From: a virus
DNA: 64,000 bases
IMG/VR virus record: IMGVR_UViG_3300035703_000033
Span: 32,001 to 96,000 of that record
Strand: one strand, 5' to 3'
Position numbers and translations under genes: made by a program. This document shows, in pieces, positions 12,907 to 62,694 of this stretch; the first letter of the stretch is position 1; each line of letters starts with the position of its first letter. Under the pieces are notes generated by a model. That model worked only from the letters and a program-made list of their open reading frames with translations, ran no database searches and was not told where the DNA came from.

Positions 12907-13615
12907 ACATAAGGAAGAATGTTTTACAATTGAGCATTTTTTAACAGAAGAAGAATGTAAAGCTATTATTTCGTATACGGAGTGGTTAGCTAGCAATAAC
13001 ATTTTAGAGTGGAATCAAATATCGTTTTATGATTCATTTGCAATGGGCTTTTGGGAAGAGGATCCAACTGGTGGCTGTGAGTTATTTGGACTTCCCAAAA
13101 ATTATTTTCATGGTGTTTTAAAACAAAAAATAAAAGATGCTTGTGAAAATGCTTTAGGAAAAGATTTAGCTGAGGTTAGTTATCATGCTCAAAAATGGAA
13201 AGATGGAGCATATGCATCATTTCATTCCGATAACTCTGACGAGCATGGAAACCCTTCAGAGTTTGAAAGAAGTAAGTATGCTGCATTTATCTATCTTAAT
13301 GAAGACTTTAAAGGTGGAAATTTAAATTTTAAACATCACGATGTAAACATAAAACCAAAAGCTGGTATGCTTGCAGTTTTTGCAGGCGGGTATACAAATG
13401 AACATGAAGTTACAAAAGTTCATGGAGGTACTCGTTATACCGTAGGATCATTTTGGGATAACGCAGATGCTGTTTATACTGAAGAGCAAATTAAAGAAAG
13501 AGAAGAAAGATTAAAGAAAACTAGAGCTGAGCAAGATTTAACTTATCAGCAGTGGGCAAAGCAAAAAGAATTGGGAATAACTCAAGACTATGTTGGAAAA
13601 TACGGTGAAGTATGA
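12869..13615 (+). CDS. 2OG-Fe(II) oxygenase, prolyl-4-hydroxylase-like
   Basis: HSD; YLNEDFKGGNL; HEVTKVHGGTRY; start position uncertain. Confidence 0.9.
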   Translation: MAQRSLIMCHITKHKEECFTIEHFLTEEECKAIISYTEWLASNNILEWNQISFYDSFAMGFWEEDPTGGCELFGLPKNYFHGVLKQKIKDACENALGKDLAEVSYHAQKWKDGAYASFHSDNSDEHGNPSEFERSKYAAFIYLNEDFKGGNLNFKHHDVNIKPKAGMLAVFAGGYTNEHEVTKVHGGTRYTVGSFWDNADAVYTEEQIKEREERLKKTRAEQDLTYQQWAKQKELGITQDYVGKYGEV

Positions 13616-14469
13616 ATAGAATAGAAATTTATCCAAGAGTAGTTGTGTATAAAAATACGCTACCTAGATGGAAAGAGTATGTAGATCTTTTAAAAAAGTC
13701 TGAATCAGAGCCACCAAGATACTACTTCAAGGATTGGGAAGATTGGTATGGTTTTGGAAAAATGATGAATCTATCAATGAATAATCCAAATGTTTCATAC
13801 AATATTGATTCTGATGATGAATATGCAAAACTACAGCAAGATTTTTTACAAGATGTAACAGATGCCTATTATAATGTTACAGCAGATTATGTAAAAACAT
13901 ACGGCATCTCTTTACCAAATTGGGTCAATAATGGTATATCGATTTGCAAATATTGGGAAAGCCCTAAGCAAAATGAAATGGCAATGCACTATCATACAGA
14001 TTATGTTGGCGCAAATGCAGATGCCCCAGGTAAAAAATTTGCTATTACTTGTACAATTTATATTAATGACGATTATGATGGCGGAGGACTATCATTTCTA
14101 AGGGAGGATACTGGTGATGTTATTGACTATAAGCCAGAGGCTGGAGATATAGTTGTATTCCCATCAGGAGATCCTATTACTGGAGCTTCTCATTATTTCC
14201 ACGGCGTAGATAGAGTCGATAATGGAGAAAAGTATTTTATAAGATGTTTTTGGTCATATGAGTTTGAAGGTACAAAAGAGTGGCATGAAGGTGTTGAAAA
14301 GTATGGAAAAGATATATGGGAAGATATGCAGCTTGAAAAAATGAAAGAGGATATAAAGTCTGGTAAATGGCATAGATATCTTGTCATGCCTGGTGAGGAA
14401 GACCCAAAGAAAGAAAGGTCTACCCCATTCTTTTTAAGGGATAAAGATGCTTATAAAAAAATTAGATGA
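13612..14469 (+). CDS. 2OG-Fe(II) oxygenase, prolyl-4-hydroxylase-like
   Basis: HTD; YINDDYDGGGL; HGVDRVDNGEKY. Confidence 0.9.
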   Translation: MNRIEIYPRVVVYKNTLPRWKEYVDLLKKSESEPPRYYFKDWEDWYGFGKMMNLSMNNPNVSYNIDSDDEYAKLQQDFLQDVTDAYYNVTADYVKTYGISLPNWVNNGISICKYWESPKQNEMAMHYHTDYVGANADAPGKKFAITCTIYINDDYDGGGLSFLREDTGDVIDYKPEAGDIVVFPSGDPITGASHYFHGVDRVDNGEKYFIRCFWSYEFEGTKEWHEGVEKYGKDIWEDMQLEKMKEDIKSGKWHRYLVMPGEEDPKKERSTPFFLRDKDAYKKIR

Positions 14470-15061
14470 GAATATTATCTATTATGAAAATGTATTAGAT
14501 AACCCATATGAATTTATTGAAAAAATAGAAAGTTTAGATATATCTAATAATAATTCAAGCCATATTAGCAAGTGGGAAAAGTGGAGTGCAAGTAATGCTG
14601 ATCAGCAGTACGGCATTTCTAAAAATGGTAGATTTTCTAATATGCATTACAGCACTGCGGAAGATATAGAAACCTCATTAATTTCGTATAAAATTAAAGC
14701 AATATCTGATTTATGTTTTGCTAACTATAAAGCTAACACTGGAGTGGATATGCTTAAGTTACCAGATTACTTTAGTATTAGGAAGTATGATACTGGAGCA
14801 GACATGGGAAAGCACGTGGATTCAGAGGATCCAACAGATAAGTCTCACCCAGTAGTTTCTGGAGTTCTTTATTTAAATGATAATTACGAGGGTGGAGAAA
14901 TTTACTTTCCAGAACAAGAAATTAAAATAAAGCCAAAAGCTGGAAGTATGATCATGTTTCCATCCTATAGACCATACTTTCATCACCCATTAGCAATTAC
15001 TAAAGGAAATAAATACATGATTCCATTTTTCTGGTATCCATTAGAAACGGTTTGGGAATAA
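14447..15061 (+). CDS. 2OG-Fe(II) oxygenase, prolyl-4-hydroxylase-like
   Basis: HVD; YLNDNYEGGEI; HHPLAITKGNKY. Confidence 0.9.
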   Translation: MLIKKLDENIIYYENVLDNPYEFIEKIESLDISNNNSSHISKWEKWSASNADQQYGISKNGRFSNMHYSTAEDIETSLISYKIKAISDLCFANYKANTGVDMLKLPDYFSIRKYDTGADMGKHVDSEDPTDKSHPVVSGVLYLNDNYEGGEIYFPEQEIKIKPKAGSMIMFPSYRPYFHHPLAITKGNKYMIPFFWYPLETVWE

Positions 15062-39090: not shown

Positions 39091-41283
39091 ATGGCATACG
39101 AAGATTTACTTAAGGATACATCAGTTCAAAGCTCAGATCCTGGGTATTTCATTGTTACAATTACAGATCTTGATCCATTAAAGCTATACCCGCTTCAGTT
39201 AAGATGGAAGTATAACGATAATACTTTTGGCCCATGGTCTGCTGTTAAATCAATAACAACTCCATCTGAAACAGTTCCATCAACTCCAAATTTAGGAGTC
39301 AGCGATGTTGTTGGCGGAAATGGTTATATAAAAATTACTTGGGATGGAAAAGATTCAAGCGGCAACCCAATACAAAATATTGACAGAGTTAATATACACA
39401 TCTCTGGCGGTACATTTGGTATAGGCACACAGGTCGTAGATTTTTTTAAAACAGCAGGAACAAAAACAATTGTTGCAGCTCCAGGAACATATATTGTTCA
39501 ATTAAAATCTATAACAGTAGCAAATACAACGTCATTCTTCAGCTTGTCTAGAACTGTAGAAGTTACAGGCACAGAAGACATAATATCTGATCCAGAAGAT
39601 CCGTCAGCGCCAACATTATCAGCTGGAAAGGCATCTATAATTGTAAGCTGGGACGGAAAGAATTCAAGCAATACAAATTTTACTGCAGGTAGCTTTTTTG
39701 GTGCAAAGGTATATATTGGAAAAACTTCTAACTTTACTCCATCAGAAAATAATTGGGTTCATACACTAAACTTTGCAAATGGTTCCAACCAAGTCTCTAT
39801 TGGTGTTGGAACAATTATAGATAAGTCTACCTCAGAGTCTTTAGATTTTGATACAAATTACTATATTAAAATAGGTACACTAAACGCAAACGGTGAAACA
39901 ACAGGAAACTTTATATCAGCAACTGGGAACCCTATTCAAGTTGAAAAAACTGCGTTTAGCGAGATAGAGGCTGGTATCTTATCAGCAGATGCTTATATAC
40001 AAGCAGGTCCATCAGGCGGGCAGAAGGTCATCCTTTCTGGAGGAGCTGAGCCTTTTGTTATATACGGCTCAGATGGTGTCACAAAACTTTTATCATTTCA
40101 ATCTCAGTTGGGCGGTGTAGGAAAGTTAAGCATTATTGGATCTGGTACATTCACTGGAGATATTTCTGCTGCTACTGGAACGCTAACTAATGCTTTAAAT
40201 ATAGGAACGCCAAGCGGTGGACTTTACCCGTTTAGCGTTAGCTCTACTGGAGTTGTAAGAGCCATATCTGGAACTATTGGCGGAATGACACTAGCAGCTG
40301 ATGGTATACAAAATAGTACAGGAAGCTTTAAGCTAGACACAGACGGTAAAGCAAAATTCGGTTCTATAGACATTTCTCCAACAATAGGTATTTATCATAA
40401 TAGTGGATCATTTAGTCTTGGAGCAAATGGAAGTCTATCACTTACTGGAAGCGTTACAGCAACAGAAGGAAGTATAGCTAATTGGACAATAATTGGATCC
40501 ACCTTAACTGCAAATAACATAACGCTAGACGCATCTACTGGAACTATTTATTCAGGAAATTCTGCAGGATCTCATATTCAATTAAGTAATGCTTATGGCT
40601 TGCGACACATGAACAATGCATCAACTACTGGAAACTTTGTTCTTACACCACTTGGTGATTTAACAATACGTGGAACAGTAACAGCAGTATCTGGTTATAT
40701 TGGAACTCCAGAAAGTGGTTGGTATATAGATAGTGTGGGTATTAGAAACTCTCAATATGGAGTAACCCCAAACACGTTTTTATATAACCCAAATAGCTTT
40801 ACCGATAATAATGTTATATTTCAAATTGCTGATGCGGATAAGTTTAGTGTAACAAAGGCTGGAAATTTGACAGCTTCTAACGCAGACATATCTGGAACAA
40901 TACGTGGTTCTGAAGTTATTGGTTCTACATTTTGGATTGGAGCAAATGCTAATTCTACTGATTATATAAATTGGGATGGTACGTTTAGCCTTGCAGGAGG
41001 AAGATTAGTTGGATCTCCATCTGTATTAACATTGAATCCAAATAAACTTGGTCCATCTCAATTTAAATTTTATTTAAACGCAGTAAGTAATGGCGACGGA
41101 ACAGCTGGAGATAAAACACTTGTTCAAGATGCAGATACAGGAGAAATAACATTAGGACGTGCATTCTTCTATGCTGGAAATCAATACCCAGATGGAAGAA
41201 CAGATAGAAGTCAATTTGCAGGTGGAGACCAAGGCTCTGGAGCATTTGATACTGGAGACATAATATTAAGTAGGAAAGCATAA
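39091..41283 (+). CDS. tail tip/fibre protein with FN3/Ig-like and beta-strand repeats
   Basis: ITWDGK/VSWDGK modules; G-rich GTIGG/GSIANW repeats. Confidence 0.6.
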   Translation: MAYEDLLKDTSVQSSDPGYFIVTITDLDPLKLYPLQLRWKYNDNTFGPWSAVKSITTPSETVPSTPNLGVSDVVGGNGYIKITWDGKDSSGNPIQNIDRVNIHISGGTFGIGTQVVDFFKTAGTKTIVAAPGTYIVQLKSITVANTTSFFSLSRTVEVTGTEDIISDPEDPSAPTLSAGKASIIVSWDGKNSSNTNFTAGSFFGAKVYIGKTSNFTPSENNWVHTLNFANGSNQVSIGVGTIIDKSTSESLDFDTNYYIKIGTLNANGETTGNFISATGNPIQVEKTAFSEIEAGILSADAYIQAGPSGGQKVILSGGAEPFVIYGSDGVTKLLSFQSQLGGVGKLSIIGSGTFTGDISAATGTLTNALNIGTPSGGLYPFSVSSTGVVRAISGTIGGMTLAADGIQNSTGSFKLDTDGKAKFGSIDISPTIGIYHNSGSFSLGANGSLSLTGSVTATEGSIANWTIIGSTLTANNITLDASTGTIYSGNSAGSHIQLSNAYGLRHMNNASTTGNFVLTPLGDLTIRGTVTAVSGYIGTPESGWYIDSVGIRNSQYGVTPNTFLYNPNSFTDNNVIFQIADADKFSVTKAGNLTASNADISGTIRGSEVIGSTFWIGANANSTDYINWDGTFSLAGGRLVGSPSVLTLNPNKLGPSQFKFYLNAVSNGDGTAGDKTLVQDADTGEITLGRAFFYAGNQYPDGRTDRSQFAGGDQGSGAFDTGDIILSRKA

Positions 41284-44200
41284 TGAGTTGGTGGAGAAAA
41301 GCAAGTTCTACCGACACGGGTAGTCATAATATAGATGGATGGATCAAAATACAGAGTATCTGGAGAAAAGCCAGCGCTTCTGATTCATACAACTCTTCAC
41401 TAAGTACAAATCCTTGGGTAATAGATGGATGGCTTAGAATTAAAAGTGCTTGGAGGCACGAGGGTGGTGGAATTTGGTCAAGAATATTTAGTGCCTTAAG
41501 TGTTCCAATTCCAAAAGACCCATTACCTACATTATATTTTAAATGGCCAGATACATTTGAAACTACTGATTCTCCAATAAATGGCTCAAAGATGTTTGTA
41601 ACAAGAGGAGCTTGGACAGAAGAGCCAAATGAATTTAGAATAAGAATTCAGGAATTAGAGCCATACGGCACTTGGACTACAATATATGATACTACTAAAA
41701 CATATACAGAATATTTAGAGTCAGATGATTTGGATAGATTCCCGTCAAATGCAAATGATTCATCTAGACCAACAATATCAAAGGCAAAGACCTTAGCTGG
41801 ATATAAATTTAGAGCAAGGGTTGATGCTACTAATGTGAATAATGACACAAATTTTCATATTACAGATCCAATGATGCCAAGATTAGATTTTATAATATCT
41901 TCTTTAGTTGTAAATTCAGAGACCTCATCTGGTGCAACATTTTCTTGGGACTATGCCCCGTATGTAAACTCTGGATCAATTAATTCATCAACAGACATAT
42001 ACTCTCAGGTTATAACAATTTATGATGAGCTTGGAGATGAAGTTTATTCAGAATCAATTCCAGCAGGGACTACATATGTTATTCTTTCAAATGCAGCTTT
42101 GCTACCAGGCACTACATATACTGCAGAGTTATGGTCTATTGCGTACGACGGCTATGTTTTTGAAACAGATCAAACTTTTGATTTTACAAGTGTAGATTTT
42201 ACTACAACTGATGCTATACCAGAAATAGAAGTTAATCCAACCCTCACATTAATTTCTGGAGAATCTGCTTGCGTGGGTTCTGTTTATAGACTATCCAGTG
42301 GATCTTGGACAAATAATCCAACAGGATTTAGATATTATTTTGATAGACAAAATTTTGCTGGTTCAAATATATTAACATATCCAAGTACTTCTACATATAC
42401 TACTGATACATATTATGACTATACTCTTGCAAGTGAAAATGCACAAGGAATAGATGCATATACAATTGCAGCAAATAATAATGGTGAAGCACAACTATAT
42501 GCATATGCAACAAGCAGCATAACTGGGCCAATTAAATTACCAAGACCTACTGGTGTCTCTGCAACAGCATCTGGCTCTTCAATTAGTATAAGTTGGACCC
42601 CACACCCATCAGCTACAAAATATAGAATTTATTGGGCTTCATCTTCAGCATACGAGCCTGGCCCAGCAAGTTCTTCTTTTGATGAAGAAAAAACCACCAC
42701 TTCGTGGACATGGAGTTCAAGCGATCCAGATAAAAATGGAGTATCTCCATCTCAAGGTTCTTCATATGTTTTTTATGTTTCTCAATCTGTTGGAGGAACA
42801 ATCTGGAGTAACTGGTCTACAGCTTCAGCTAGTGTAACAATGCCTTCAACTCCAGTAAATACATCAAGACCAGTATTTAGTTTACAGTCTGGTACAGCAA
42901 ATAAAGTTGGATCCACTTATAGATTATCTAGTGGATCTTGGGCAAATAATCCTACACCAACACAGTTTAGATATATACTAGAATTAAACAATGTTTCTGG
43001 CACACGTTTTGTGCAGTATCCGTCATCTACAGGATGGACAACAGACAGTTATTATGATCATACATTTTCTTCAAGCACATCCTCATCTATTTCTGGAGTA
43101 GTTGTTGCTTATAATGGCTTGTCTGCAGAAGCTTATAGTACGACTAGTATTGGTCCAATTACATATCCAACATATACAATAACATATAATGGAAATGGCG
43201 GAACTCCAACAAGGTCTTCTGATATTGTAAATGCTGGTTCTTCAATTACTTTACCAAGTGCTTCAAGAAATTATAATACATTTTATGCATGGTATGATTC
43301 AGCAGTTGGTGGCTCATATGTAGGGACTGCTGGAGCTACCTATACACCTACATCAGATATCACCCTATATGCTAGATGGACTCCAATAGAATGGACTGTA
43401 ACCTGGAATGGAAATGGAGGTACTGTAAATAATAATAATAGCAGCACTTATGCAGTTACATTTAATGCAGGTTCTACTCTTACAGCTCCATATGCAACTA
43501 GGGCGAACTATACACATACTGGTTGGCGTTACCCGTCGTCTGGAGATATTTGGTATAGCGCCTCACCAGGAGGCTCATTCACACCAGATAGTAGCATAAT
43601 AATGTATGCAACATGGTCAAGGAATAGTTATTTCCTATATTATTCAGAAGAAGGTGGAACGGCAGTTTCAGATGCTACAGTATTGGCTGGAGATTCAACA
43701 ACACTACCAGCAACTACAAGAACTGGATATACGTTTAATGGTTGGTATAGCGATGGTATAAGGTTGGGAGGAGCTGGTTCTACTTATACGCCAACATCTA
43801 ATATGACAATATATGCATCCTGGACACCAATACAATATACTGTAACTTGGAATGCAAATGGTGGCTCTGTAAGCCCAAGCAGCACTACAGGAAACTTTGA
43901 TTCAGTTATATATGCCCCAACACCAACCAGGGCTGGGTATACCTTTTTATATTGGAGAGATGATACAAGAGCTCAAAATTATCTTTATCAGGTAAATGCA
44001 GGAGGTCAATGGACAATTGCTGGAAATATTACATTCTATGCTATTTGGCAAGTTGCAATTCCGCCAACACCATCATGGGTAAGTGCTTCTACAGACAGAA
44101 CTGATGGAATTAGATTAGAGTGGGGTTTGATTGATGGAGCAACTTCTTATGAAATTTGGTGGGGATCTAGCGCACCTTCAGATAGTTTATCTACACCTGA

Positions 44201-44921
44201 TTTTTATCCAGGCAATACTTACTACTATTTAGATACATCAGTTAGTTCTGGTAGCTCTAGAACATACTATATTCGTGCAAGAAATTCAGCAGGAGCTTCA
44301 TCTTGGTCTAGTGGAATAACTGGAACTAGGGCGAACACACAATATACTGTAACTTGGAATGCCAACGGAGGTACTGGCGGAGGATCTACTACCCAAAATG
44401 CTGGAGTAGCACATATAGCACCATCACCTGGAACCAGAACTGGCTATACTTTTAATGGATATTATGACAGAACATCTGGAGACTATTTATATGGACCAAT
44501 TGCATCTGGTGGCTCATTTAACCCGCCATCTTCAATTACAATGAGCGCAAGATGGTCATCAGCTACCACCACAACTACTACCACTACTACAACAACAACC
44601 ACTACAACGTCATGCGTATGTAATTACTCAGATTATGGAACTTATTATTTCTCACCACAATGCTGTTCTGCTAATGCTCCGTACACGGGCCTCCCAGCTG
44701 GGCTTTCCCCAGGATCTGGGTCATGTTGTCCAAATGTCAACAAGCCAGCTGCCACCACAACTACCACCACAACCACAACAACCACGGCAGCTCCATGTAA
44801 TACCGTATATTGGAAATGCAATTTAACAGATGTGCAAAATTATAGTAATCCATGTCAATTTGTTGGTCAATGTAGGTATGAGGGGAATGACTATTATTCT
44901 GCAGGATGTTGCTCAGTATGA
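41283..44921 (+). CDS. large surface/fibre protein: Ig-like, FN3, five Listeria-Bacteroides-type repeats, Thr tracts, Cys-rich modules
   Basis: VGS.YRLSSGSW.NNPT x2; YTVTWNANGG..PTR.GYTF..W-type repeat x5; T15 and T11 tracts; two 6-Cys modules. Confidence 0.75.
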   Translation: MSWWRKASSTDTGSHNIDGWIKIQSIWRKASASDSYNSSLSTNPWVIDGWLRIKSAWRHEGGGIWSRIFSALSVPIPKDPLPTLYFKWPDTFETTDSPINGSKMFVTRGAWTEEPNEFRIRIQELEPYGTWTTIYDTTKTYTEYLESDDLDRFPSNANDSSRPTISKAKTLAGYKFRARVDATNVNNDTNFHITDPMMPRLDFIISSLVVNSETSSGATFSWDYAPYVNSGSINSSTDIYSQVITIYDELGDEVYSESIPAGTTYVILSNAALLPGTTYTAELWSIAYDGYVFETDQTFDFTSVDFTTTDAIPEIEVNPTLTLISGESACVGSVYRLSSGSWTNNPTGFRYYFDRQNFAGSNILTYPSTSTYTTDTYYDYTLASENAQGIDAYTIAANNNGEAQLYAYATSSITGPIKLPRPTGVSATASGSSISISWTPHPSATKYRIYWASSSAYEPGPASSSFDEEKTTTSWTWSSSDPDKNGVSPSQGSSYVFYVSQSVGGTIWSNWSTASASVTMPSTPVNTSRPVFSLQSGTANKVGSTYRLSSGSWANNPTPTQFRYILELNNVSGTRFVQYPSSTGWTTDSYYDHTFSSSTSSSISGVVVAYNGLSAEAYSTTSIGPITYPTYTITYNGNGGTPTRSSDIVNAGSSITLPSASRNYNTFYAWYDSAVGGSYVGTAGATYTPTSDITLYARWTPIEWTVTWNGNGGTVNNNNSSTYAVTFNAGSTLTAPYATRANYTHTGWRYPSSGDIWYSASPGGSFTPDSSIIMYATWSRNSYFLYYSEEGGTAVSDATVLAGDSTTLPATTRTGYTFNGWYSDGIRLGGAGSTYTPTSNMTIYASWTPIQYTVTWNANGGSVSPSSTTGNFDSVIYAPTPTRAGYTFLYWRDDTRAQNYLYQVNAGGQWTIAGNITFYAIWQVAIPPTPSWVSASTDRTDGIRLEWGLIDGATSYEIWWGSSAPSDSLSTPDFYPGNTYYYLDTSVSSGSSRTYYIRARNSAGASSWSSGITGTRANTQYTVTWNANGGTGGGSTTQNAGVAHIAPSPGTRTGYTFNGYYDRTSGDYLYGPIASGGSFNPPSSITMSARWSSATTTTTTTTTTTTTTTSCVCNYSDYGTYYFSPQCCSANAPYTGLPAGLSPGSGSCCPNVNKPAATTTTTTTTTTTAAPCNTVYWKCNLTDVQNYSNPCQFVGQCRYEGNDYYSAGCCSV

Positions 44922-44933
44922 TGATAAATACTA

Positions 44934-44962
44934 TTGACAAAAATAATCTAAATTGGTAAAAT
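44934..44962 (+). promoter_or_regulatory. near-consensus promoter, leaderless
   Basis: TTGACA-17 bp-TAAAAT with extended TG; ATG 44969 is 6 nt after the -10. Confidence 0.8.
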
Positions 44963-44968
44963 GGCATA

Positions 44969-45328
44969 ATGTTATTAAGTAAAGATATTATTCACATAAT
45001 AAATCCTGGGAATGAGCAATATTTTAATGAAGAGGTACATGTTGCCGCATGTTTTATTATTGATGATATAGTTGTTGAAAATGGTATGTATTCTAGAGAG
45101 TTTTTTGATTTGTTCAATAGATCTCATATTGAAGAAAAAGAACAATATGAAAACGGAGATATACGCATTGCATTAACAGAAAGCGGTAGTGTGGAAAAAC
45201 AACACATGATATTAGATGAAAGGCTTGCTTCTATAATGTTAAGTAATCCACAGTTAATTGAAGTCCCAGAAAATATGCGATGGGTTACAATTGGGTCTCA
45301 ATATATAGATGGAGTGTTCTATCCATGA
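44969..45328 (+). CDS. hypothetical protein (possible fibre chaperone)
   Basis: Directly after the fibre gene; first gene of a coupled operon. Confidence 0.5.
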   Translation: MLLSKDIIHIINPGNEQYFNEEVHVAACFIIDDIVVENGMYSREFFDLFNRSHIEEKEQYENGDIRIALTESGSVEKQHMILDERLASIMLSNPQLIEVPENMRWVTIGSQYIDGVFYP

Positions 45329-45579
45329 CAGAAAAAACTAAATGGGAACAGTATTTAGAAAAGCAAAAAGATAAAAGTCCAAATAAATCTGTAAAGCCGT
45401 GGGATTTAATAAATCCAAATACAGAATATGTGGATAAAGAAATTTCAGCACAAAGATATGAAATTTGTAAGCAGTGTCCTGAGCTTTTTGATTTAACAAA
45501 ACAGTGTAAAAAATGCGGATGCTTTATGGCATTAAAAACTAAGCTGACAGAGGCTACATGCCCTATAGGTAAATGGTAA
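45325..45579 (+). CDS. small Cys-rich DUF6171-like protein
   Basis: RYEICKQCP..QCKKCGCFM..KTKL..ATCPIGKW; ATGA overlap favours start 45325. Confidence 0.65.
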   Translation: MTEKTKWEQYLEKQKDKSPNKSVKPWDLINPNTEYVDKEISAQRYEICKQCPELFDLTKQCKKCGCFMALKTKLTEATCPIGKW

Positions 45580-46472
45580 TGTCTAGTATATTTGTTCAAA
45601 TACCATCTTATCATGATTATGAATTAAAAAGAACTATTGTTGATGCCATAAAACAAAGCTCTGGATCACATATAATTAATTTTGGAGTTCATGTTACATA
45701 TTTTGACAATATTGATTTTGATATTCCAGACCTTCCAAATGTAAGGCTAGAGATATCCAAAGCTCCTAAAAATATTGGAGTCGGAGCTAGCAGGTATATA
45801 GCAAATTCACTATATTCTGGGGAAGACTATTACTTGCAAATAGATTCTCATATGAGGTTTGAAAAAAATTGGGATCATAATTTAATTACAGATTATCTTG
45901 ATAAAAAAGCACATGGAGCAAATCCAGTAATATCCGCCTACCCAGGGGCATATGAGTACAATAATGGTAGCCTCAATATACTAAATAGCAAAGCACATGT
46001 TGCATATACAGATTTTATTCAGGAGTTAAGTTTTCAGGGAGATGTTGTTCCGCATCAAAGAGCCGTAGGTAATTTCTCCAATAATATTTTTACTAGATCT
46101 GTTTCTGCTGCATCTATTTTTTCAGATGGATCAATTGCGTCCATAAAGCCAAACAAAAAGATATTTTTCTGGGGAGAAGAGATATTAACTGCCGTAAGGC
46201 TTTTTACACATGGGTATGACCTCATGCTTCCAGTTTCTCAAAACCTATATCATCTTTATTACAAGCCAGAAGATGGGTTTAAAAATTTAAGAAGGCAGGT
46301 TGGGGTAGATTTTGAACAAGAATCTATCTTAATGGATATAGAGTCAAAAAAGGAAATAGAATCGATTATTTTGAACAATATTGTTGGGGAGTATGCGCTG
46401 GGCAGCTCTAGGACCTTGGCTGATTACCAAGAGTATGCTAGAATAGATTTTACCAATAAGGTAATTCTTTAA
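45573..46472 (+). CDS. GT60/Gnt1-like polypeptide GlcNAc transferase
   Basis: IFVQIPSYHD.EL..TI; GVGASR..ANSLYSGEDYYLQIDSHMRF..NWD; ISAYP; FWGEEI..AVRLFTHGYD; HLY. Confidence 0.8.
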   Translation: MVMSSIFVQIPSYHDYELKRTIVDAIKQSSGSHIINFGVHVTYFDNIDFDIPDLPNVRLEISKAPKNIGVGASRYIANSLYSGEDYYLQIDSHMRFEKNWDHNLITDYLDKKAHGANPVISAYPGAYEYNNGSLNILNSKAHVAYTDFIQELSFQGDVVPHQRAVGNFSNNIFTRSVSAASIFSDGSIASIKPNKKIFFWGEEILTAVRLFTHGYDLMLPVSQNLYHLYYKPEDGFKNLRRQVGVDFEQESILMDIESKKEIESIILNNIVGEYALGSSRTLADYQEYARIDFTNKVIL

Positions 46473-46483
46473 GGAGGAATATA

Positions 46484-46693
46484 ATGCTATCAAATAGTGA
46501 TAAGCTAGTAATTGTTGAGCAAAAGATCAAAAATCTTGAGTACCAAAAGTATGGTATAGAGCTAGACTTGCAGCTAGAAAATGCAACGTCTGTACCAGAT
46601 CAGGAAAACTTAGATTCAATTAATACAAGACTTGCAGACGCAAACGCTAAGCTTGATGTTTTAAATGCAGAAAAAGCATCTCTAGGAGAATAG
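46484..46693 (+). CDS. hypothetical coiled-coil protein
   Basis: Strong SD aaggagg. Confidence 0.6.
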   Translation: MLSNSDKLVIVEQKIKNLEYQKYGIELDLQLENATSVPDQENLDSINTRLADANAKLDVLNAEKASLGE

Positions 46694-46701
46694 GAATATA
46701 A

Positions 46702-46875
46702 GTGTCAGATAAAGCAGAACTTATGATTATTGCCTTGCAACAAAGAATAGGCGAATTGGTTTCTGGGTATGAATCACAAATTGCTATGCTTAGAGCAGAA
46801 CTTACTGAATTAATTAGGGAAAAGGAAGAGCATGAGAAAGCTATTCAAGACTACTCAGACTCCCTCCCTGGTTAA
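46702..46875 (+). CDS. hypothetical coiled-coil protein (57 aa, not in ORF track)
   Basis: GTG start; MSDKAELMIIALQQRIGELVSGYESQIAMLRAEL...; fills an intergenic gap. Confidence 0.6.
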   Translation: MSDKAELMIIALQQRIGELVSGYESQIAMLRAELTELIREKEEHEKAIQDYSDSLPG

Positions 46876-47242
46876 TCAACCAACCACATTCCCATCAGGA
46901 TTAGCGGTTAAAACAGAATCTGCCACCTACTGGATCAAAGATAATAAAAGATACAAGCTTATTTCTGAAAGAGCTGCAAGATCTTGGTCTTTTGTTACAG
47001 TTAACGCAACAGAGAATGCCATATCTCATATCAAGATAGTTGGAAAATTGGGATTTAGAGATGGGACTATCATTAAAAATATATCAGATAGCAAGATATA
47101 TCTAATATCTCAAAATAAAAGAAGGCATGTGGTAAGTCCAGATGTCTTCGTTAGATATGGGCTAAGCCGAGATGCTATAATTGAGGTATCAGATGCAGAA
47201 TCCAATATGCATAATTTAGGAGAAGATTTAAATGCCATATGA
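46832..47242 (+). CDS. hypothetical protein with internal duplicated module
   Basis: YWIKDNKRYKLIS / YLISQNKRRHVVS. Confidence 0.55.
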   Translation: MRKLFKTTQTPSLVNQPTTFPSGLAVKTESATYWIKDNKRYKLISERAARSWSFVTVNATENAISHIKIVGKLGFRDGTIIKNISDSKIYLISQNKRRHVVSPDVFVRYGLSRDAIIEVSDAESNMHNLGEDLNAI

Positions 47243-47663
47243 GTTTAAGAGGTTCGATGACGGAGAGCCGCTTGATGTAAATAAGTTAAATTTAATTGTA
47301 GATAATATTACACAATTAATTACAGATACAGCACCGCTTAGAGATTCAACAGACTCTGGCCAGGGTTACGCTTTAGTGGAGTCTGGGCTTATACAGTTTG
47401 AAGATGTAACTGGAAACGGCACTCCAGTTCAGCAGGCAATTACATTCAAAAAGATCAGCGCAGAGGCAGCACAAGCTGGGAAGGTGCATGTAGTTGCGTC
47501 ATTAAACAATGGATTACGTGCAGACGAAGATGTATTTGTTTCCGTAGGAGCAATATCGACTGGCACACCTCAAGTTATGTTGAAGGTAAATATTACTGGT
47601 AAGTCTATCAAGCCAAGAGCAACATACAATGTGCGTTGGATAGCTGTAGAGAACAAAATCTAG
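47232..47663 (+). CDS. hypothetical structural protein
   Basis: Last gene before the terminator; C-terminal VRWIAV. Confidence 0.5.
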   Translation: MPYEFKRFDDGEPLDVNKLNLIVDNITQLITDTAPLRDSTDSGQGYALVESGLIQFEDVTGNGTPVQQAITFKKISAEAAQAGKVHVVASLNNGLRADEDVFVSVGAISTGTPQVMLKVNITGKSIKPRATYNVRWIAVENKI

Positions 47664-47665
47664 TA

Positions 47666-47693
47666 TTGACAAGTTTGTATTTAATGCTACACT
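47666..47693 (+). promoter_or_regulatory. promoter for replication module
   Basis: TTGACA-16 bp-TACACT with extended TG. Confidence 0.6.
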
Positions 47694-47707
47694 ATCGGTG
47701 TAGTATC

Positions 47708-47732
47708 AAAGTCACGCACCCGTGACTTTTTT
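47708..47732 (+). terminator. intrinsic terminator-like hairpin
   Basis: aaagtcacg-cacc-cgtgacttt followed by a T-run. Confidence 0.75.
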
Positions 47733-57813: not shown

Positions 57814-57994
57814 TGAGTTTATTGGCCCAAAGCCAACAGTAGATTCTATGTCTAATTTAGAAAAATTAATTGGTCAAAAACCTTGTTCTAAATGTGATCT
57901 TGATGTCACAGAATACTATTGGGATCCAGCCAACTTTATAATGACATGGACATGCAACGCTGGACATTTAAATACAGTAAAGGTCAATGTATGA
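57800..57994 (+). CDS. small Zn-binding protein
   Basis: CSKC...CNAGH. Confidence 0.55.
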   Translation: MPNINEFIGPKPTVDSMSNLEKLIGQKPCSKCDLDVTEYYWDPANFIMTWTCNAGHLNTVKVNV

Positions 57995-58779
57995 TATTTG
58001 ATTACGAAAAAGTTGTTGTTGCTCCACAAATAGTAATATATAAAAATATATTTAAGCACAGCGCTGAGCTAATCAATTTATTAAATTCTGATAGGGATTC
58101 TATAATTTCCCCATGGTCTTCTTGGTATGAAAACGGATATAGATGTGGCACTTTATTTAAAGATATGGATATTTTAGAGTCAGATCCAGAATCAATAAAA
58201 GAAGAAAAAAGATACCTAAAAGAATTCTATGATATCTTAGAGTTTATTAAAAAAGATTATTTATTAGAATTTAATAAAGATAATGGCATATGGCCAGACT
58301 TTATTTCTGATTGGGATCAACTTCTAAATAATAACATAGATTATTATATTGATTTTTTTAGATATGATATTAACAAAATTGATTTATCTGAAAATAAATT
58401 ATTGATGGAGTATCATGTTGATGAAGATGAGTACCTGGCAGAAGGTGAGATTAAGTCTCTTAAAAATGTTGCAACAATAAATATTTATTTAAATAATGAG
58501 TATCATGGTGGTGAAATTTGCGCCTATGATTCGTTTACAAATAAAAGCTATAGTTACAAAGCTAACCCAGGTGATGCCGTAATTATGCCATCCTGTTCAC
58601 CATTTTACCATGCTGTCAAAAAATTTAGTGGAAGCGATAGATATTTTATGAGATCATTTTTTAAATATATTTCAACGTCAACAAGCACAAAATCTGAAAT
58701 AGAAAAGCAAAAAGATGAATATTTAAAAAATAATTTACAAATGCGTAAAGTGGATATAGATGAGATTGAGGTATTTTGA
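57991..58779 (+). CDS. 2OG-Fe(II) oxygenase, prolyl-4-hydroxylase-like
   Basis: YHVD; YLNNEYHGGEI; HAVKKFSGSDRY; ATGA overlap favours start 57991. Confidence 0.85.
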   Translation: MIFDYEKVVVAPQIVIYKNIFKHSAELINLLNSDRDSIISPWSSWYENGYRCGTLFKDMDILESDPESIKEEKRYLKEFYDILEFIKKDYLLEFNKDNGIWPDFISDWDQLLNNNIDYYIDFFRYDINKIDLSENKLLMEYHVDEDEYLAEGEIKSLKNVATINIYLNNEYHGGEICAYDSFTNKSYSYKANPGDAVIMPSCSPFYHAVKKFSGSDRYFMRSFFKYISTSTSTKSEIEKQKDEYLKNNLQMRKVDIDEIEVF

Positions 58780-59078
58780 TAATGTCTGAAAAGAGTGAAG
58801 CAATAAGAGATGGCGCAAGGCAACAAAAAAATTCTGGACGTGGCAAGTACCAAAAGGGTGATGCTATATGGCATAACTTTGTTGTTGACTACAAAGAATC
58901 AAATTCATCATTCACATTAAATAAAGATGTTTGGTCTAAAATATGCACAGACACATTTAAGGTTAGTAGAGATATGCATCCAGCGTTAAAACTAATCATT
59001 GGGGAAAATTCAAAAATAAGGCTTGCTGTTATAGAGTGGTCAATTTTAGAAGATTTATTAGGAGAAAAAAATGTATAA
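58776..59078 (+). CDS. PD-(D/E)XK Holliday-junction resolvase-like nuclease
   Basis: SE..DGA..NSGRG..KGDA..VDYKE..SFTL. Confidence 0.65.
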   Translation: MIMSEKSEAIRDGARQQKNSGRGKYQKGDAIWHNFVVDYKESNSSFTLNKDVWSKICTDTFKVSRDMHPALKLIIGENSKIRLAVIEWSILEDLLGEKNV

Positions 59079-59763
59079 TATTACAGCATATATTGATGAT
59101 CCAGTACGTGGGCATGCAAAGATTAGACAGCTTAGCCCAAAGCGAGAGTGGATGAATTCTGGTCATTATAATTGCTATCCACTAAATGTAGCAAATAGTG
59201 TAGGCTACGGTGTATATTTTGATGAAGATATATCTTTTATATGGGATGGTGTTGCAGAAAATCCACCTAAAGGAATACTTGGATCTAAGTATATATGGGA
59301 GGGAAGAAGTAATGGAGCAGCAAGTTTAGCTACAGGGCTTGTTTTTAAAAGTGATCCAGACGTAAGTCTTATGACTATGCCAATTCCTAATTATTTTAGA
59401 AAAGAATTTAATGTCGTAAGCACTGTTTTATCTACTTCATTTTTTACTGGAGAACTGTCAATAGCATTGCAGATACAGGAAGACTACATAAATAAAGAAA
59501 TTGTTTTGCCAGCAAATACTGACATAGCTTGTATAATTCCAATATCTATTTCTCAATTTAATGAGTCTACTATAAATATTGCAAATCAAAGATACCCATT
59601 TGATAGAATTCATGATAGAAAAGAATATGTTGATGCGTTACATAAGCACTTCAGAGAAACTGGCAAAAGATTAAGACTTTATAAAAATGGTAAAGATGAA
59701 AAGAATAATAAAATAGGAGATCATGAATTGTCTTCCTTAAAAATGAATGTAAAAGAGGTATAA
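59071..59763 (+). CDS. DUF6065-like protein (paralogue of 10786..11481)
   Basis: Both begin MY.ITAY and share R.WM, YNC.P, EDISFIWDG/EEISFIWDG, STSFF.G. Confidence 0.7.
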   Translation: MYNITAYIDDPVRGHAKIRQLSPKREWMNSGHYNCYPLNVANSVGYGVYFDEDISFIWDGVAENPPKGILGSKYIWEGRSNGAASLATGLVFKSDPDVSLMTMPIPNYFRKEFNVVSTVLSTSFFTGELSIALQIQEDYINKEIVLPANTDIACIIPISISQFNESTINIANQRYPFDRIHDRKEYVDALHKHFRETGKRLRLYKNGKDEKNNKIGDHELSSLKMNVKEV

Positions 59764-61392: not shown

Positions 61393-61939
61393 AAAGGTTA
61401 ATGCGTCTAAAGTCTTAGGAATAGATGCATCTACAAATTCTTTTGCATTTTCTTTAATTGAAAATAATAAACCAACAAAGTGGGGCAAGGTTGAATTTTC
61501 TGGCGCTGATATTTATGAGAAAATATATGATGCAAAAATTAAAACAAAGGCTATGCTAAAAGAATTATCTTGCGATTATATTGCAATTGAGGGTGCAGTG
61601 CTTGTCAGATCACCAGATGCTGTGATAAAATTGTCATATGTTTATGGAGTTGTTATTTCAGAGCTTATGTCTACTGGCGCCAGTGTTATCGCTATTTCTC
61701 CTACTGCTTGGCAGGCATTTATTGGCAATAAAAATCCGACAAAAGATGAAAAATCTGCTTTAAAAGCTGCATACCCAGGTTACGCAGAATCTTGGTATAA
61801 AAATAAAATGAGAAATATAAGAAAGCAAAGAACAGCTGATTATTTTAACAATAAGTACGGCTTAAAGATAGAAGATTTCGATGTGGCTGACTCGATGGGT
61901 ATAGCCTATTATGCTAATGAGGTATTAACAAAAAGATGA
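61373..61939 (+). CDS. RuvC-like resolvase
   Basis: VLGIDAS; IAIEG; DVADSMGIA. Confidence 0.8.
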   Translation: MTLASLKKVNASKVLGIDASTNSFAFSLIENNKPTKWGKVEFSGADIYEKIYDAKIKTKAMLKELSCDYIAIEGAVLVRSPDAVIKLSYVYGVVISELMSTGASVIAISPTAWQAFIGNKNPTKDEKSALKAAYPGYAESWYKNKMRNIRKQRTADYFNNKYGLKIEDFDVADSMGIAYYANEVLTKR

Positions 61940-62694
61940 TTATTCAAATTATAGGACTTCCTGGGTCTGGCAAAACAGAGCTAGCAAAGGCTTTAAAGGA
62001 ACGCATAAATGCAATTCATCTTAATGCAGATGAGGTACGCTCTACAGTTAATTCAGATCTTGGTTTTACAAAGGAAGACAGAATAGAGCAGGCCAGACGT
62101 ATGGGAGAAATGGCTAGGCTTATATCAAAGCAAGGTGTTGCCCCAGTAATTGTAGATTTTGTGTGCCCAACAAAAGAAACAAGAGAGGCTTTTGGATTCG
62201 CTAACTTAGTTATTTGGGTGGATAGAATTAAAGAAGGTAGATTTGAAGATACTAATAAGATGTGGGAAGATCCAGATCATTTTGATATTAGAATTCTAGA
62301 TGGCTACACAGTAAAGCAAGAGGTAGACACAGTAATACAGGCTGGAGGTCTATTCGACTGGTCCTCTCCAACAACATTGCAGTTGGGAAGATATCAGCCA
62401 TGGCATGAAGGTCATCAGGCATTAAAGGACGAGGCTCATAAAAGAACTGATCAGGTTTTAGTTGGAGTTAGAAATACATACGGTACTTCAGAAAAAGATC
62501 CAATGACTTATTCAGAAGTAAGACACTATATTGAAAAGGATAATTTTTATAAAAATACCATTATATTAAGATTGCCTAATATTACAAACATTGTTTACGG
62601 TAGAGATGTTGGCTATAAGATTGAGCAAGTAGATTTGGGGGCTGAAATTCATGCTATTAGTGCTACTCAAAAGCGTAAAGAAATGGGTATATAG
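61936..62694 (+). CDS. adenylyl-sulfate kinase-like domain fused to HxGH nucleotidyltransferase
   Basis: GLPGSGKT; LNADEVR..DLGFTKEDR; GRYQPWHEGH. Confidence 0.8.
   Translation: MIIQIIGLPGSGKTELAKALKERINAIHLNADEVRSTVNSDLGFTKEDRIEQARRMGEMARLISKQGVAPVIVDFVCPTKETREAFGFANLVIWVDRIKEGRFEDTNKMWEDPDHFDIRILDGYTVKQEVDTVIQAGGLFDWSSPTTLQLGRYQPWHEGHQALKDEAHKRTDQVLVGVRNTYGTSEKDPMTYSEVRHYIEKDNFYKNTIILRLPNITNIVYGRDVGYKIEQVDLGAEIHAISATQKRKEMGI

What the first reader, a model, noticed from the sequence alone, without database searches (positions are those of the whole stretch)
44934..46472. GT60/Gnt1-like O-GlcNAc transferase operon directly behind the Thr-tract gene
Seen: a near-consensus promoter 12 nt after the fibre stop drives three overlapping genes ending in a glycosyltransferase with the QIDSHMRF signature. 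Established: GT60 enzymes add alpha-GlcNAc to Skp1 hydroxyproline (Dictyostelium Gnt1, acting after the prolyl hydroxylase PhyA) or to Thr of trypanosome mucins, and some actinophages glycosylate their virions. Inference: this genome holds both acceptor types (Thr tracts next door; Pro repeats plus hydroxylases at 7.6-15.7 kb), so it may encode a full Pro-to-Hyp-to-GlcNAc pathway. This is a second substrate-plus-enzyme cassette parallel to the first.
Basis: partly seen in the sequence, partly recalled or inferred. Interest (0 to 1): 0.82.

Follow-up and report, generated by a model that had tools for sequence, protein, structure and literature searches.

The report
Phage sugar-transferase cassette behind poly-threonine fibre
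An uncultured 110-kb freshwater phage of actinobacteria has, right after its last tail-fibre gene, a small operon ending in an enzyme built like those that start mucin sugar chains; related phages keep this enzyme next to threonine-rich fibre proteins, so it probably sugar-coats the fibre stalk, though no sugar has been measured.

Summary
A TTGACA-17-TAAAAT promoter begins 12 nt after the fibre stop and keeps its position in eight relatives. It always lies 6 nt before the ATG, so the mRNA is probably leaderless. Three coupled genes follow: orf119, a DUF6171 Cys-rich protein and a 297-aa glycosyltransferase. The transferase is a true PF11397/GT60 member (E 2e-36) with an invariant DxH. Its 29 best solved structural matches are all mucin-type ppGalNAc-transferases (Z 19-22.5).

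In about 38 non-redundant viral loci the same cassette follows at least ten unrelated fibre-like proteins. Each has a Thr-rich linker (poly-Thr-AAP, ATTAAP, TPTPTS) and a Cys-rich tip. In this genome the adjacent fibre is the only protein with long poly-Thr runs.

The best reading is cytoplasmic O-glycosylation of the fibre's Thr linkers, like the T. cruzi GT60 acting on KPPT8KPP.

The proposed Pro-to-Hyp-to-GlcNAc pathway is neither shown nor excluded. Hydroxylase genes flank the enzyme in sister clades but lie 30 kb away here. The donor sugar is unknown.

Earlier follow-ups of this scan reported the same GT60/Thr-tract theme on at least eight other genomes. I found no paper describing it.

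The parts
41283..44921 (+). 1212-aa distal tail-fibre-like protein, the proposed acceptor. It has five Listeria-Bacteroides (Flg_new) repeats, then a T15 run (44565-44609), a 6-Cys module of about 45 aa, a T11 run (44754-44786) and a second 6-Cys module at the C-terminus.
   Evidence: Pfam Flg_new E 1e-33. It is the last gene of the tail block that follows the tape-measure and minor tail proteins. It is the only protein in the 109.6-kb genome with Thr runs of 6 or more. The runs use mixed ACC/ACA/ACT/ACG codons.
44934..44962 (+). Sigma-70/SigA-type promoter TTGACA-17-(TG)TAAAAT. The -10 ends 6 nt before the ATG, so the transcript is predicted to be leaderless.
   Evidence: 11/12 match. (genome-wide enrichment, 23 sites against 6.2 expected). 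(position conserved in 8 relatives, constant 6-nt gap to the ATG in the 7 that have orf119).
44969..45328 (+). orf119: small conserved protein of unknown role. Family core: F-V-I-D-x-E-V ... A-L-x-S-N-P-x-V-V ... G-W-x-Y-D-G-x-F. Possibly associated with the fibre.
   Evidence: No Pfam or PHROG hit. Homologues occupy the same slot in more than 20 loci. AF2 pLDDT 86.9. Only weak leads to function: Pam3 fibre N-terminus at Z 5.0 and an Atlas tail-fibre-assembly cluster at 0.80.
45325..45579 (+). DUF6171: 84-aa Cys-rich (CxxC...CxxCxC...C), probably zinc-binding protein, translationally coupled on both sides.
   Evidence: PF19668 E 3e-7 and phrog_13558 E 1e-16. It lies within 40 nt upstream of the GT in 25 of 38 clade-A loci and within 2 kb in 33 of 38. 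It also occurs without a GT60 in cultured cyanophages and in Stenotrophomonas and Rhizobium phages.
45579..46472 (+). 297-aa soluble GT-A glycosyltransferase, family GT60/PF11397. It has DxH (D89-S-H91), a WGEE motif (E201) and an invariant H225. It has no lectin domain, signal peptide or membrane segment.
   Evidence: Pfam E 2.4e-36. phrog_24687. Invariant columns. AF2 pLDDT 95.7. Nearest solved structures are ppGalNAc-Ts, Z 18.8-22.5 over about 260 of 297 residues.
46484..47663 (+). Four small downstream genes (69, 57, 136 and 143 aa), tightly packed and probably co-transcribed. Function unknown.
   Evidence: ORF spacing and the AGGAGG site before 46484. phrog_9616 for the 136-aa protein. 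Synteny with the cassette holds in close relatives. Contigs from RNA libraries of four studies cover 46478-46957, which is a weak hint because contigs may derive from DNA.
47708..47729 (+). First terminator-like hairpin with a T-run after the cassette; probable end of the transcription unit.

Best explanation
Proposed mechanism. This is a late, fibre-linked protein-glycosylation cassette. A host-type promoter just behind the last tail-fibre gene drives a probably leaderless mRNA. The mRNA encodes a small fibre-associated protein (orf119), a Cys-rich DUF6171 protein and a soluble GT60-family retaining GT-A glycosyltransferase. In the infected cell's cytoplasm, before virion assembly, the transferase binds a UDP-sugar through Mn2+ held by D89-x-H91 (plus H225). 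It transfers the sugar onto Thr hydroxyls of the T15 and T11 linkers that separate the Cys-rich tip modules of the adjacent 1212-aa fibre protein. The result would be a stiff, protease-resistant, mucin-like stalk. By family precedent the donor is most likely UDP-GlcNAc, which every bacterium makes.

Shown: family membership, fold, catalytic motifs, operon anatomy, and recurrent gene linkage with Thr-rich-linker proteins.

Inferred: the acceptor, the donor, the timing, and any role for DUF6171 or orf119.
For: - Family: PF11397 at 126 bits.
- Motifs: DxH, E201 and H225 are invariant in 46 homologues.
- Fold: the AF2 model has pLDDT 95.7. The top 29 PDB entries are all mucin-type ppGalNAc-Ts, Z 18.8-22.5, aligned over the whole catalytic domain. 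Generic GT2-type enzymes reach 17.2 or less (Foldseek E 4e-11).
- Literature: GT60 and GT27 group together, share DxH and share polypeptide Ser/Thr O-glycosylation (PMC7185993). The T. cruzi GT60 enzyme is Mn2+-dependent and glycosylates KPPTTTTTTTTKPP (PMC3769586, PMC9472816).
- Gene linkage, clade A: in the 39-row GT clade that holds this gene, 22 of 35 evaluable non-redundant loci have a protein with a Thr run of 6 or more within 2.6 kb upstream on the same strand. That is 23 of 93 upstream ORFs against 2 of 276 elsewhere (odds ratio 45). The count is 0 of 178 ORFs around GTs of the clade that lacks DUF6171 (17 loci).
- Other linkers: most remaining clade-A loci carry ATTAAP, TPTPTS, PTPA or TTA linkers.
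- Carriers: they belong to at least 10 unrelated architectures but nearly all end in a module of 4-8 Cys.
- This genome: the fibre is the only poly-Thr protein.
- Linker ends: 50 of 83 Thr runs are followed by xxP, mostly AAP. From my own knowledge, Pro at +3 is the preference of ppGalNAc-Ts.
- Location: the cassette closes the tail gene block. The promoter is conserved.
Against: - No biochemical or mass-spectrometric data exist.
- The loci are related phages, so the odds ratio overstates independence.
- 11 of 38 clade-A loci have P4H-like oxygenases beside the GT, and every near-complete clade-A genome checked has such genes. Hyp cannot be excluded as acceptor.
- One long-branch locus (L062) pairs the GT with a pure PPFF repeat that has almost no Thr.
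- In 80 bacterial loci with homologues of 33% identity or less, Thr/Pro-rich neighbours were seen in only 11 and DUF6171 in none. The linkage is therefore shown only for the phage clade.
- Donor specificity cannot be read from sequence. Two relatives have an NAD-dependent sugar epimerase directly after the GT, which hints at a different or additional sugar.
Confidence: 0.6

Rival explanations
1. Skp1-type two-step pathway. P4H-like 2OG oxygenases encoded elsewhere in the genome first hydroxylate Pro, either in the AAP that ends each Thr run or in the FFAPPG repeats of the protein at 7609-8946. The GT60 then adds alpha-GlcNAc to the hydroxyproline, as Dictyostelium and Toxoplasma Gnt1 do after PhyA.
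For: - The genome holds at least 7 2OG-FeII_Oxy_3 genes.
- In two sister subclades of the same GT clade, and in the paralog-2 clade, P4H-like genes directly abut the GT. Examples: L032, L035, L038, L041, L043, L060, L062, L072/73, L084.
- Some carriers hold poly-Thr and PPFFPP or PPYFPP in one protein (L019, L032, L035), and L062 has only PPFF repeats.
- GT60 includes a characterised Hyp-directed enzyme (literature found, e.g. PMC11570480).
Against: - In this genome the P4H cluster lies about 30 kb away, and the FFAPPG gene has no GT beside it.
- None of the 19 rows of the window's own subclade has a P4H within 6 kb, yet 17 of the 19 have a Thr-rich linker and 16 of the 19 have DUF6171 directly upstream.
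- A 100%-complete phage carrying a GT60 of another clade has no PF13640 gene at all (G005).
- P4H-like genes are very common in these phages, so adjacency is weaker evidence than it looks.
Confidence: 0.17
2. The acceptor is not a virion protein. The enzyme would modify a host envelope glycopolymer, a lipid-linked precursor or phage DNA, for example to block superinfection or restriction, as many other phage glycosyltransferases do.
For: - Phage GTs that modify DNA or O-antigen are well documented (reviewed in PMC12619734, section 12).
- A GT-A fold alone does not fix the acceptor, and GT2-type polysaccharide enzymes still score Z 15-17.
- PHROG files the family under 'moron, auxiliary metabolic gene and host takeover'.
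Against: - The nearest structures by a clear margin are peptide-glycosylating enzymes, and every characterised GT60 acts on polypeptides (PMC9472816, PMC7185993).
- The gene sits at the end of the late tail block, translationally coupled to fibre-linked genes. It is not among the early or DNA-metabolism genes, which start at 49.8 kb.
- The recurrent linkage to Thr-rich linker proteins is unexplained by this reading.
- The protein has no membrane segment.
Confidence: 0.1
3. The enzyme glycosylates a host protein such as a receptor, a surface protein or a cytoplasmic factor as a takeover or exclusion function. The neighbouring fibre gene would be coincidental.
For: It is a soluble cytoplasmic peptide-type GT. 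Actinobacterial surface proteins often carry Thr/Pro linkers (my own knowledge, not tested here).
Against: Linkage to phage-encoded Thr-linker proteins holds across at least 10 carrier architectures. The gene sits in a late operon. No host target can be named.
Confidence: 0.05

Closest known systems
Protist CAZy GT60 polypeptide alpha-GlcNAc-transferases (T. cruzi TcOGNT1/2; Dictyostelium Golgi pp-alphaGlcNAcT)
   Same: Same Pfam family (PF11397) and the same DxH metal motif. The characterised acceptor is a Thr run flanked by Pro (KPPT8KPP; Mn2+-dependent; PMC3769586), close to the phage T(9-22)-AAP linkers.
   Different: The protist enzymes are type-II Golgi membrane proteins acting in the secretory pathway. 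The phage enzyme is a bare 297-aa soluble catalytic domain that must act in a bacterial cytoplasm. Its activity, anomer and donor are untested. I did not align it to the protist sequences because none was available by reference.
Gnt1 (GT60), cytoplasmic UDP-GlcNAc:hydroxyproline-Skp1 GlcNAc-transferase of Dictyostelium and Toxoplasma, acting after prolyl hydroxylase PhyA
   Same: Same family, soluble and cytoplasmic. The phage genome also encodes P4H-like oxygenases, and these flank the GT in sister phage clades.
   Different: There is no Skp1-like acceptor. The hydroxylases are not linked to this gene in this genome. The constant partners are DUF6171 and Thr-rich linkers.
Animal and apicomplexan polypeptide GalNAc-transferases (GT27, e.g. 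human GalNAc-T2, PDB 2FFU, 4D0T, 6NQT)
   Same: These are the closest solved structures (Z up to 22.5, rmsd about 3.2 A over about 260 residues, the whole catalytic domain). They share the DxH motif and a WG(G)E-type motif, and they start mucin-type O-glycosylation on Thr/Ser with Pro nearby.
   Different: Sequence identity is only 10-15%. There is no sequence-level hit to any PDB chain, no ricin-type lectin domain and no membrane anchor. The phage enzyme is not a GT27 member.
Mycobacteriophage virion glycosylation (Freeman et al. 2023, Cell Host Microbe, as cited in PMC12619734)
   Same: An actinophage-encoded glycosyltransferase next to structural genes, decorating the phage's own virion proteins.
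   Different: There the glycans sit on C-terminal tails of the capsid and tail-tube subunits. Here the proposed target is poly-Thr linkers of a distal fibre, with a conserved DUF6171 partner. I could not read that paper, so I did not compare the GT families.

Membership tests
CAZy GT60 / Pfam PF11397 (GlcNAc) | Sequence match to the family model above its curated threshold | tested here: met
   126.4 bits against a cut-off of 21, E 2.4e-36, residues 57-294. Also found by a six-frame family search of the genome.
CAZy GT60 / Pfam PF11397 (GlcNAc) | GT-A fold with DxH in place of DxD as the metal-binding motif | tested here: met
   The AF2 model (pLDDT 95.7) has a GT-A fold. D89-S-H91 is invariant in 46 homologues. 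DxH is stated for GT27 and GT60 in PMC7185993.
CAZy GT60 / Pfam PF11397 (GlcNAc) | C-terminal His completing the metal site | tested here: inconclusive
   H225 is invariant. I did not check its equivalence to the C-His of GT27 residue by residue.
CAZy GT60 / Pfam PF11397 (GlcNAc) | Retaining transfer of GlcNAc from UDP-GlcNAc to Thr or Hyp of a polypeptide | not testable with these tools
   This needs an enzyme assay or mass spectrometry. The only evidence here is gene-neighbourhood support for a Thr-rich polypeptide acceptor.
GT27 polypeptide GalNAc-transferases | Catalytic-domain structure | tested here: met
   The top 29 PDB entries are all ppGalNAc-Ts, Z 18.8-22.5, with model residues 1-297 aligned to residues 135-439 of GalNAc-T2.
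GT27 polypeptide GalNAc-transferases | Sequence-level membership and a C-terminal ricin-type lectin domain | tested here: not met
   There is no PDB sequence hit with the single sequence or the profile. PF11397 is the only Pfam hit. The protein ends with the catalytic domain at 297 aa.
Skp1-type Pro-to-Hyp-to-GlcNAc pathway (PhyA + Gnt1) | A prolyl 4-hydroxylase-type oxygenase functionally paired with the GT | tested here: inconclusive
   2OG-FeII_Oxy_3 genes are present in the genome. None lies within 6 kb of this GT or of any GT in its 19-row subclade. They are adjacent to the GT in sister subclades.
Skp1-type Pro-to-Hyp-to-GlcNAc pathway (PhyA + Gnt1) | A defined Pro/Hyp acceptor protein (Skp1 or an analogue) | not tested
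   I made no search for Skp1. The candidate analogues (FFAPPG repeats at 7609-8946; the AAP after each Thr run) are only inferred.
Phage virion-glycosylation systems (mycobacteriophage type) | A phage-encoded GT beside structural genes whose product carries the glycan | tested here: inconclusive
   The position at the end of the tail block is met. Glycan on the virion cannot be tested here.

The most novel reading that the evidence does not exclude
Freshwater phages carry a modular 'fibre-tip maturation' toolkit that turns low-complexity Thr/Pro linkers of their distal fibres into mucin- or extensin-like glycomodules in the bacterial cytoplasm. The toolkit comprises a GT60 transferase, a DUF6171 zinc protein and a small orf119-type protein. 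Optional additions are P4H-like hydroxylases, a radical-SAM/SPASM enzyme, a sugar epimerase and a second GT. The 'TxxP' ends of the Thr runs would act as the recognition signal, and Thr-O- and Hyp-O-glycosylation would be alternative or combined outputs of one system. DUF6171 would be an obligatory partner of the transferase.
Probability: 0.25. Interest if true: 0.8.

Novelty: new variant of a known kind. Interest (0 to 1): 0.6.

Why it matters
If confirmed, this would be mucin-type O-glycosylation started by a soluble viral enzyme inside a bacterial cell, on the phage's own receptor-binding apparatus.

It would explain why poly-Thr and Thr/Pro linkers are so common in fibres of uncultured aquatic phages. 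It would extend virion glycosylation beyond the mycobacteriophage capsid and tail-tube case. It would also give glyco-engineers a minimal 297-aa peptide-glycosylating enzyme with a simple recognisable acceptor (Thr run + AAP).

The cassette offers a direct in vitro test of whether GT60 enzymes choose Thr or Hyp. It also gives a first functional context for DUF6171.

Tried and rejected
- Sequence search of the PDB with the protein and with a 46-sequence profile found nothing. There is no solved GT60 structure to compare with.
- DNA search of cultured phages found only an 82-nt match, inside DUF6171, in a cyanophage. Protein search found four jumbo Xanthomonas and Stenotrophomonas phages at 25-28% identity. 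No cultured relative carries the cassette.
- orf119 has no Pfam hit for any of 20 family members, except that L039 has a GNAT acetyltransferase in that slot, which is a different protein. Its fold search gave only Z 5.0 to the N-terminus of the cyanophage Pam3 fibre, with PH-like folds at Z 4-4.6. The Atlas gave tail-fibre-assembly clusters at 0.80. These are too weak to name a function.
- In 80 bacterial loci with homologues (33% identity or less, many phyla) there was no DUF6171. P4H-like genes occurred in 10 loci and Thr/Pro-rich ORFs in 11, and there was no control. This neither supports nor refutes the linkage outside phages.
- Contigs from four RNA libraries cover only 46478-46957, 47561-47711 and low-complexity Thr-codon stretches. 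None covers the GT. They give no evidence for or against its transcription and no start site.
- I rejected ATG 45573 as the GT start, because it arises from the conserved Lys-Trp codons of DUF6171. I rejected ATG 45280 as the DUF6171 start.
- I considered slippage-prone DNA as the origin of the Thr runs. The mixed codon usage argues for selection at the protein level.
- I could not place the enzyme relative to Gnt1 versus the Golgi pp-alphaGlcNAcTs, because no eukaryotic GT60 sequence was available by reference.
Full report
**Setting.** The window is bases 32001-96000 of a 109.6-kb IMG/VR phage record that is 92% complete and 36% G+C. The phage encodes a WhiB-like regulator, which fits an actinobacterial host.

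The + strand carries these genes in order: portal, protease, head-tail adaptor, a 2164-aa tape-measure protein, minor tail proteins, a 730-aa protein and a 1212-aa protein. The flagged cassette follows. DNA replication genes begin at 49.8 kb: DnaB helicase, primase, Pol III alpha and RecA. The cassette therefore closes the late tail block.

**The observation.**
- *Promoter.* The fibre ORF stops at 44919-44921. TTGACA begins 12 nt later at 44934, with a 17-nt spacer, a TG extension and TAAAAT ending at 44962. It is the only 11/12 match in the surrounding 10 kb.
- *Chance.* Such sites are enriched genome-wide, 23 observed against 6.2 +/- 2.0 in Markov shuffles.
- *Conservation.* Eight relatives with diverged spacer sequence keep both hexamers in place. 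In the seven that have orf119, the -10 lies exactly 6 nt before the ATG with no Shine-Dalgarno sequence. That geometry predicts a leaderless mRNA, which is common in actinobacteria (my own knowledge).
- *Coupling.* The orf119 stop overlaps the DUF6171 start as ATGA at 45325-45328. The DUF6171 stop overlaps the transferase start as TAATG at 45577-45581. The true starts are 45325 and 45579. The earlier ATGs listed by the ORF finder are by-products.
- *Extent.* Four more small genes follow without gaps up to 47663. The first terminator-like hairpin is at 47708-47729. The unit is probably seven genes, not three.

**The enzyme.**
- It matches Pfam PF11397 at 126 bits against a cut-off of 21 (E 2.4e-36), and it matches phrog_24687.
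- More than 1150 metagenomic homologues exist. Many lie on contigs of 105-115 kb.
- In a 46-sequence alignment reaching down to 23% identity, these residues are invariant: G67, R72, D83, Q87, D89, H91, W98, D99, F181, G199, E201, G212 and H225.
- The literature states that GT27 and GT60 replace DxD by DxH, group together, and share polypeptide Ser/Thr O-glycosylation (PMC7185993).
- No PDB chain matches by sequence.
- The AF2 model is very confident (pLDDT 95.7, pTM 0.93). All of its 29 best PDB entries are mucin-type polypeptide GalNAc-transferases (VIA-align Z 18.8-22.5, rmsd 3.1-3.4 A, about 260 of 297 residues, covering the whole catalytic domain). Generic GT2-type enzymes follow at Z 17.2 or less.
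- The protein is a bare catalytic domain with no lectin domain, signal peptide or membrane segment.

It is not met.

**Comparative genomics.** A scan of IMG/VR gave 79 loci. A maximum-likelihood tree of the 64 distinct GTs shows three groups:
- a 39-row clade (SH-aLRT 95) that holds the window gene;
- a small clade that holds the genome's second PF11397 paralog;
- a clade of phage and giant-virus GTs without the cassette.

Within the 39-row clade a four-part module recurs:
1. A fibre-like 'carrier' protein. Its N-terminal part varies (Flg_new repeats, FN3 or others). A low-complexity linker follows, then one or more small modules with 4-8 Cys at the very C-terminus.
2. A small orf119-type protein.
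3. DUF6171, within 40 nt of the GT in 25 of 38 non-redundant loci and within 2 kb in 33 of 38.
4. The GT.

The linkers are poly-Thr runs of up to 22 residues, or ATTAAP, TPTPTS, PTPA, TTA, or occasionally PPFF or PPSFTA repeats.

Counts for Thr runs of 6 or more:
- They occur in 23 of 93 ORFs within 2.6 kb upstream, against 2 of 276 ORFs elsewhere in the same loci. The odds ratio is 45 and Fisher p is 3e-13, which is inflated by relatedness.
- They occur in 0 of 178 ORFs around GTs of the 17 loci that lack DUF6171.

The carriers fall into at least ten architectures that do not align with one another. The linkage is therefore not simply inherited synteny.

In the window's own genome the fibre is the only protein with long Thr runs. 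These runs use four different Thr codons. Of 83 Thr runs in the carriers, 41 are followed by AAP and 9 more by PAP or QAP. That places Pro at +3 of the last Thr, the position that ppGalNAc-Ts favour (my own knowledge; a lead, not a test).

The characterised T. cruzi GT60 enzyme is Mn2+-dependent and is assayed on KPPTTTTTTTTKPP (PMC3769586). It makes GlcNAc-alpha-1-O-Thr in mucins (PMC9472816).

**The hydroxyproline idea.**
- The genome holds several PF13640 (P4H-type) oxygenases: at 10085-15058, at 57919-58779, and next to the second GT60 paralog.
- In relatives, P4H-like genes often abut the GT. Examples are L030-L045, L060, L062, L072/73 and L084.
- Some of those loci also carry a radical-SAM/SPASM enzyme between DUF6171 and the GT, a TauD dioxygenase, a glutathione peroxidase, an NAD-dependent sugar epimerase, or a second GT.
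- Three carriers hold poly-Thr and PPFFPP-type motifs in one protein.

On the tree, however, P4H adjacency is confined to two sister subclades. None of the 19 rows of the window's subclade has it, whereas 17 of the 19 keep a Thr-rich linker and 16 of the 19 keep DUF6171. A complete phage with a GT60 of another clade has no PF13640 gene.

The hydroxylases therefore look like an optional add-on to a fibre-modification island, not the obligate first step for this enzyme. The data cannot exclude Hyp, for example in the AAP ends, as an acceptor.

**The small partners.**
- DUF6171 has a strongly conserved motif, C-x2-C ... TKQCKKCGC ... CPIGKW. It occurs in many cultured phages without GT60, including T4-like cyanophages and Stenotrophomonas, Rhizobium and Xanthomonas phages. 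In Synechococcus phage WH25-B it lies at the end of a run of hypothetical genes that follows a tail-fibre gene. No paper mentions it.
- orf119 folds confidently (pLDDT 86.9) but has no convincing structural relative.
- The roles of both proteins are open.

**Distribution.** Near-identical DNA occurs in runs labelled freshwater, reservoir, aquatic, estuary, soil and subsurface. Bacterial homologues are widespread but share 33% identity or less and lack DUF6171. UniProt already labels similar uncultured-phage proteins 'Glycosyltransferase, GlcNAc'. My searches found no paper describing the cassette or its link to poly-Thr fibres.

Earlier follow-ups of this scan reached the same reading on at least eight other genomes. 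Those are AI notes, not independent evidence. I reached the DUF6171, radical-SAM and poly-Thr conclusions from my own analyses before reading them.

**Verdict.**
- The family assignment is sound.
- The most likely function, at about 0.6, is cytoplasmic O-glycosylation of the Thr linkers of the adjacent fibre.
- The Pro-to-Hyp-to-GlcNAc pathway remains a minority possibility, at about 0.17.
- This is a new variant of known kinds (GT60 mucin-type initiation; actinophage virion glycosylation). It is moderately to highly interesting and directly testable.

Noticed in passing
L003:3641-13337 (G000 99.6-109.3 kb, beyond the window's end): A second, diverged PF11397 paralog (L003:9039-9968, E 1e-21) sits in a cluster with a zinc-type dehydrogenase, a NodU/CmcH-type carbamoyltransferase, HSP20, a 2OG-FeII_Oxy_3 oxygenase and a PA14 protein with a long PEPSP/PEPTP stalk. 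It looks like a second glycan-tailoring island. On the tree the paralog groups with P4H-linked GTs.
   Followed up: partly
L030:4983-5996, L043:5033-6001 (also L037, L041, L042): In relatives a radical-SAM/SPASM enzyme lies between DUF6171 (plus a P4H-like gene) and the GT60. This suggests a further modification of the Cys-rich fibre tip or of DUF6171 itself.
   Followed up: partly
L043:6890-7720, L048:6881-7726, L023:5121-6005: Two relatives have an NAD-dependent sugar epimerase/dehydratase directly after the GT60. One has a DUF7164/galactosyltransferase-like gene directly before it. These hint at other donors or at chain extension in those phages.
   Followed up: no
window 44969 and relatives L009, L010, L012, L014, L017, L049: The -10 hexamer lies a constant 6 nt before the ATG with no Shine-Dalgarno sequence, so the late cassette mRNA is predicted to be leaderless. 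L008 instead has a longer leader with AAGGAG.
   Followed up: yes
whole genome G000: Near-consensus sigma-70-type promoters (11/12 or better) are about fourfold enriched (23 against 6.2 expected). They cluster in the first 30 kb (the early region). Only two lie in the long late block covered by the window.
   Followed up: partly
carrier proteins in L006-L050, e.g. L025:4371-5360, L044:4742-5449: Half of all Thr runs are followed by Ala-Ala-Pro (41 of 83). Nearly all carriers end in a module of 30-50 aa with 4-8 Cys. This fibre-tip architecture is widespread and unnamed.
   Followed up: partly
L085:4912-5166 (Synechococcus phage WH25-B) and 86 other cultured-phage records: DUF6171 occurs in T4-like cyanophages and in Stenotrophomonas, Rhizobium, Xanthomonas and Leptospira phages without a GT60. 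In WH25-B it ends a run of hypothetical genes that follows a tail-fibre gene.
   Followed up: partly
window 57919-58779, 59071-59763 and 61936-62694: Among the replication genes there is another 2OG-FeII_Oxy_3 oxygenase plus a DUF6065 protein (a 2OG-FeII_Oxy_3 gene and a DUF6065 gene also lie side by side at 10085-11481), and a protein with an APS-kinase domain (E 1.5e-16) and a weak cytidylyltransferase-like match that is below the Pfam threshold.
   Followed up: no
window 46478-46957: Contigs from metatranscriptome libraries of four studies match the two small genes just after the GT at 99% or better. This could reflect transcription or carried-over DNA.
   Followed up: partly
L039:3419-3916: In one relative the slot of orf119 is taken by a GNAT-type acetyltransferase (Pfam Acetyltransf_13/7/1).
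   Followed up: no
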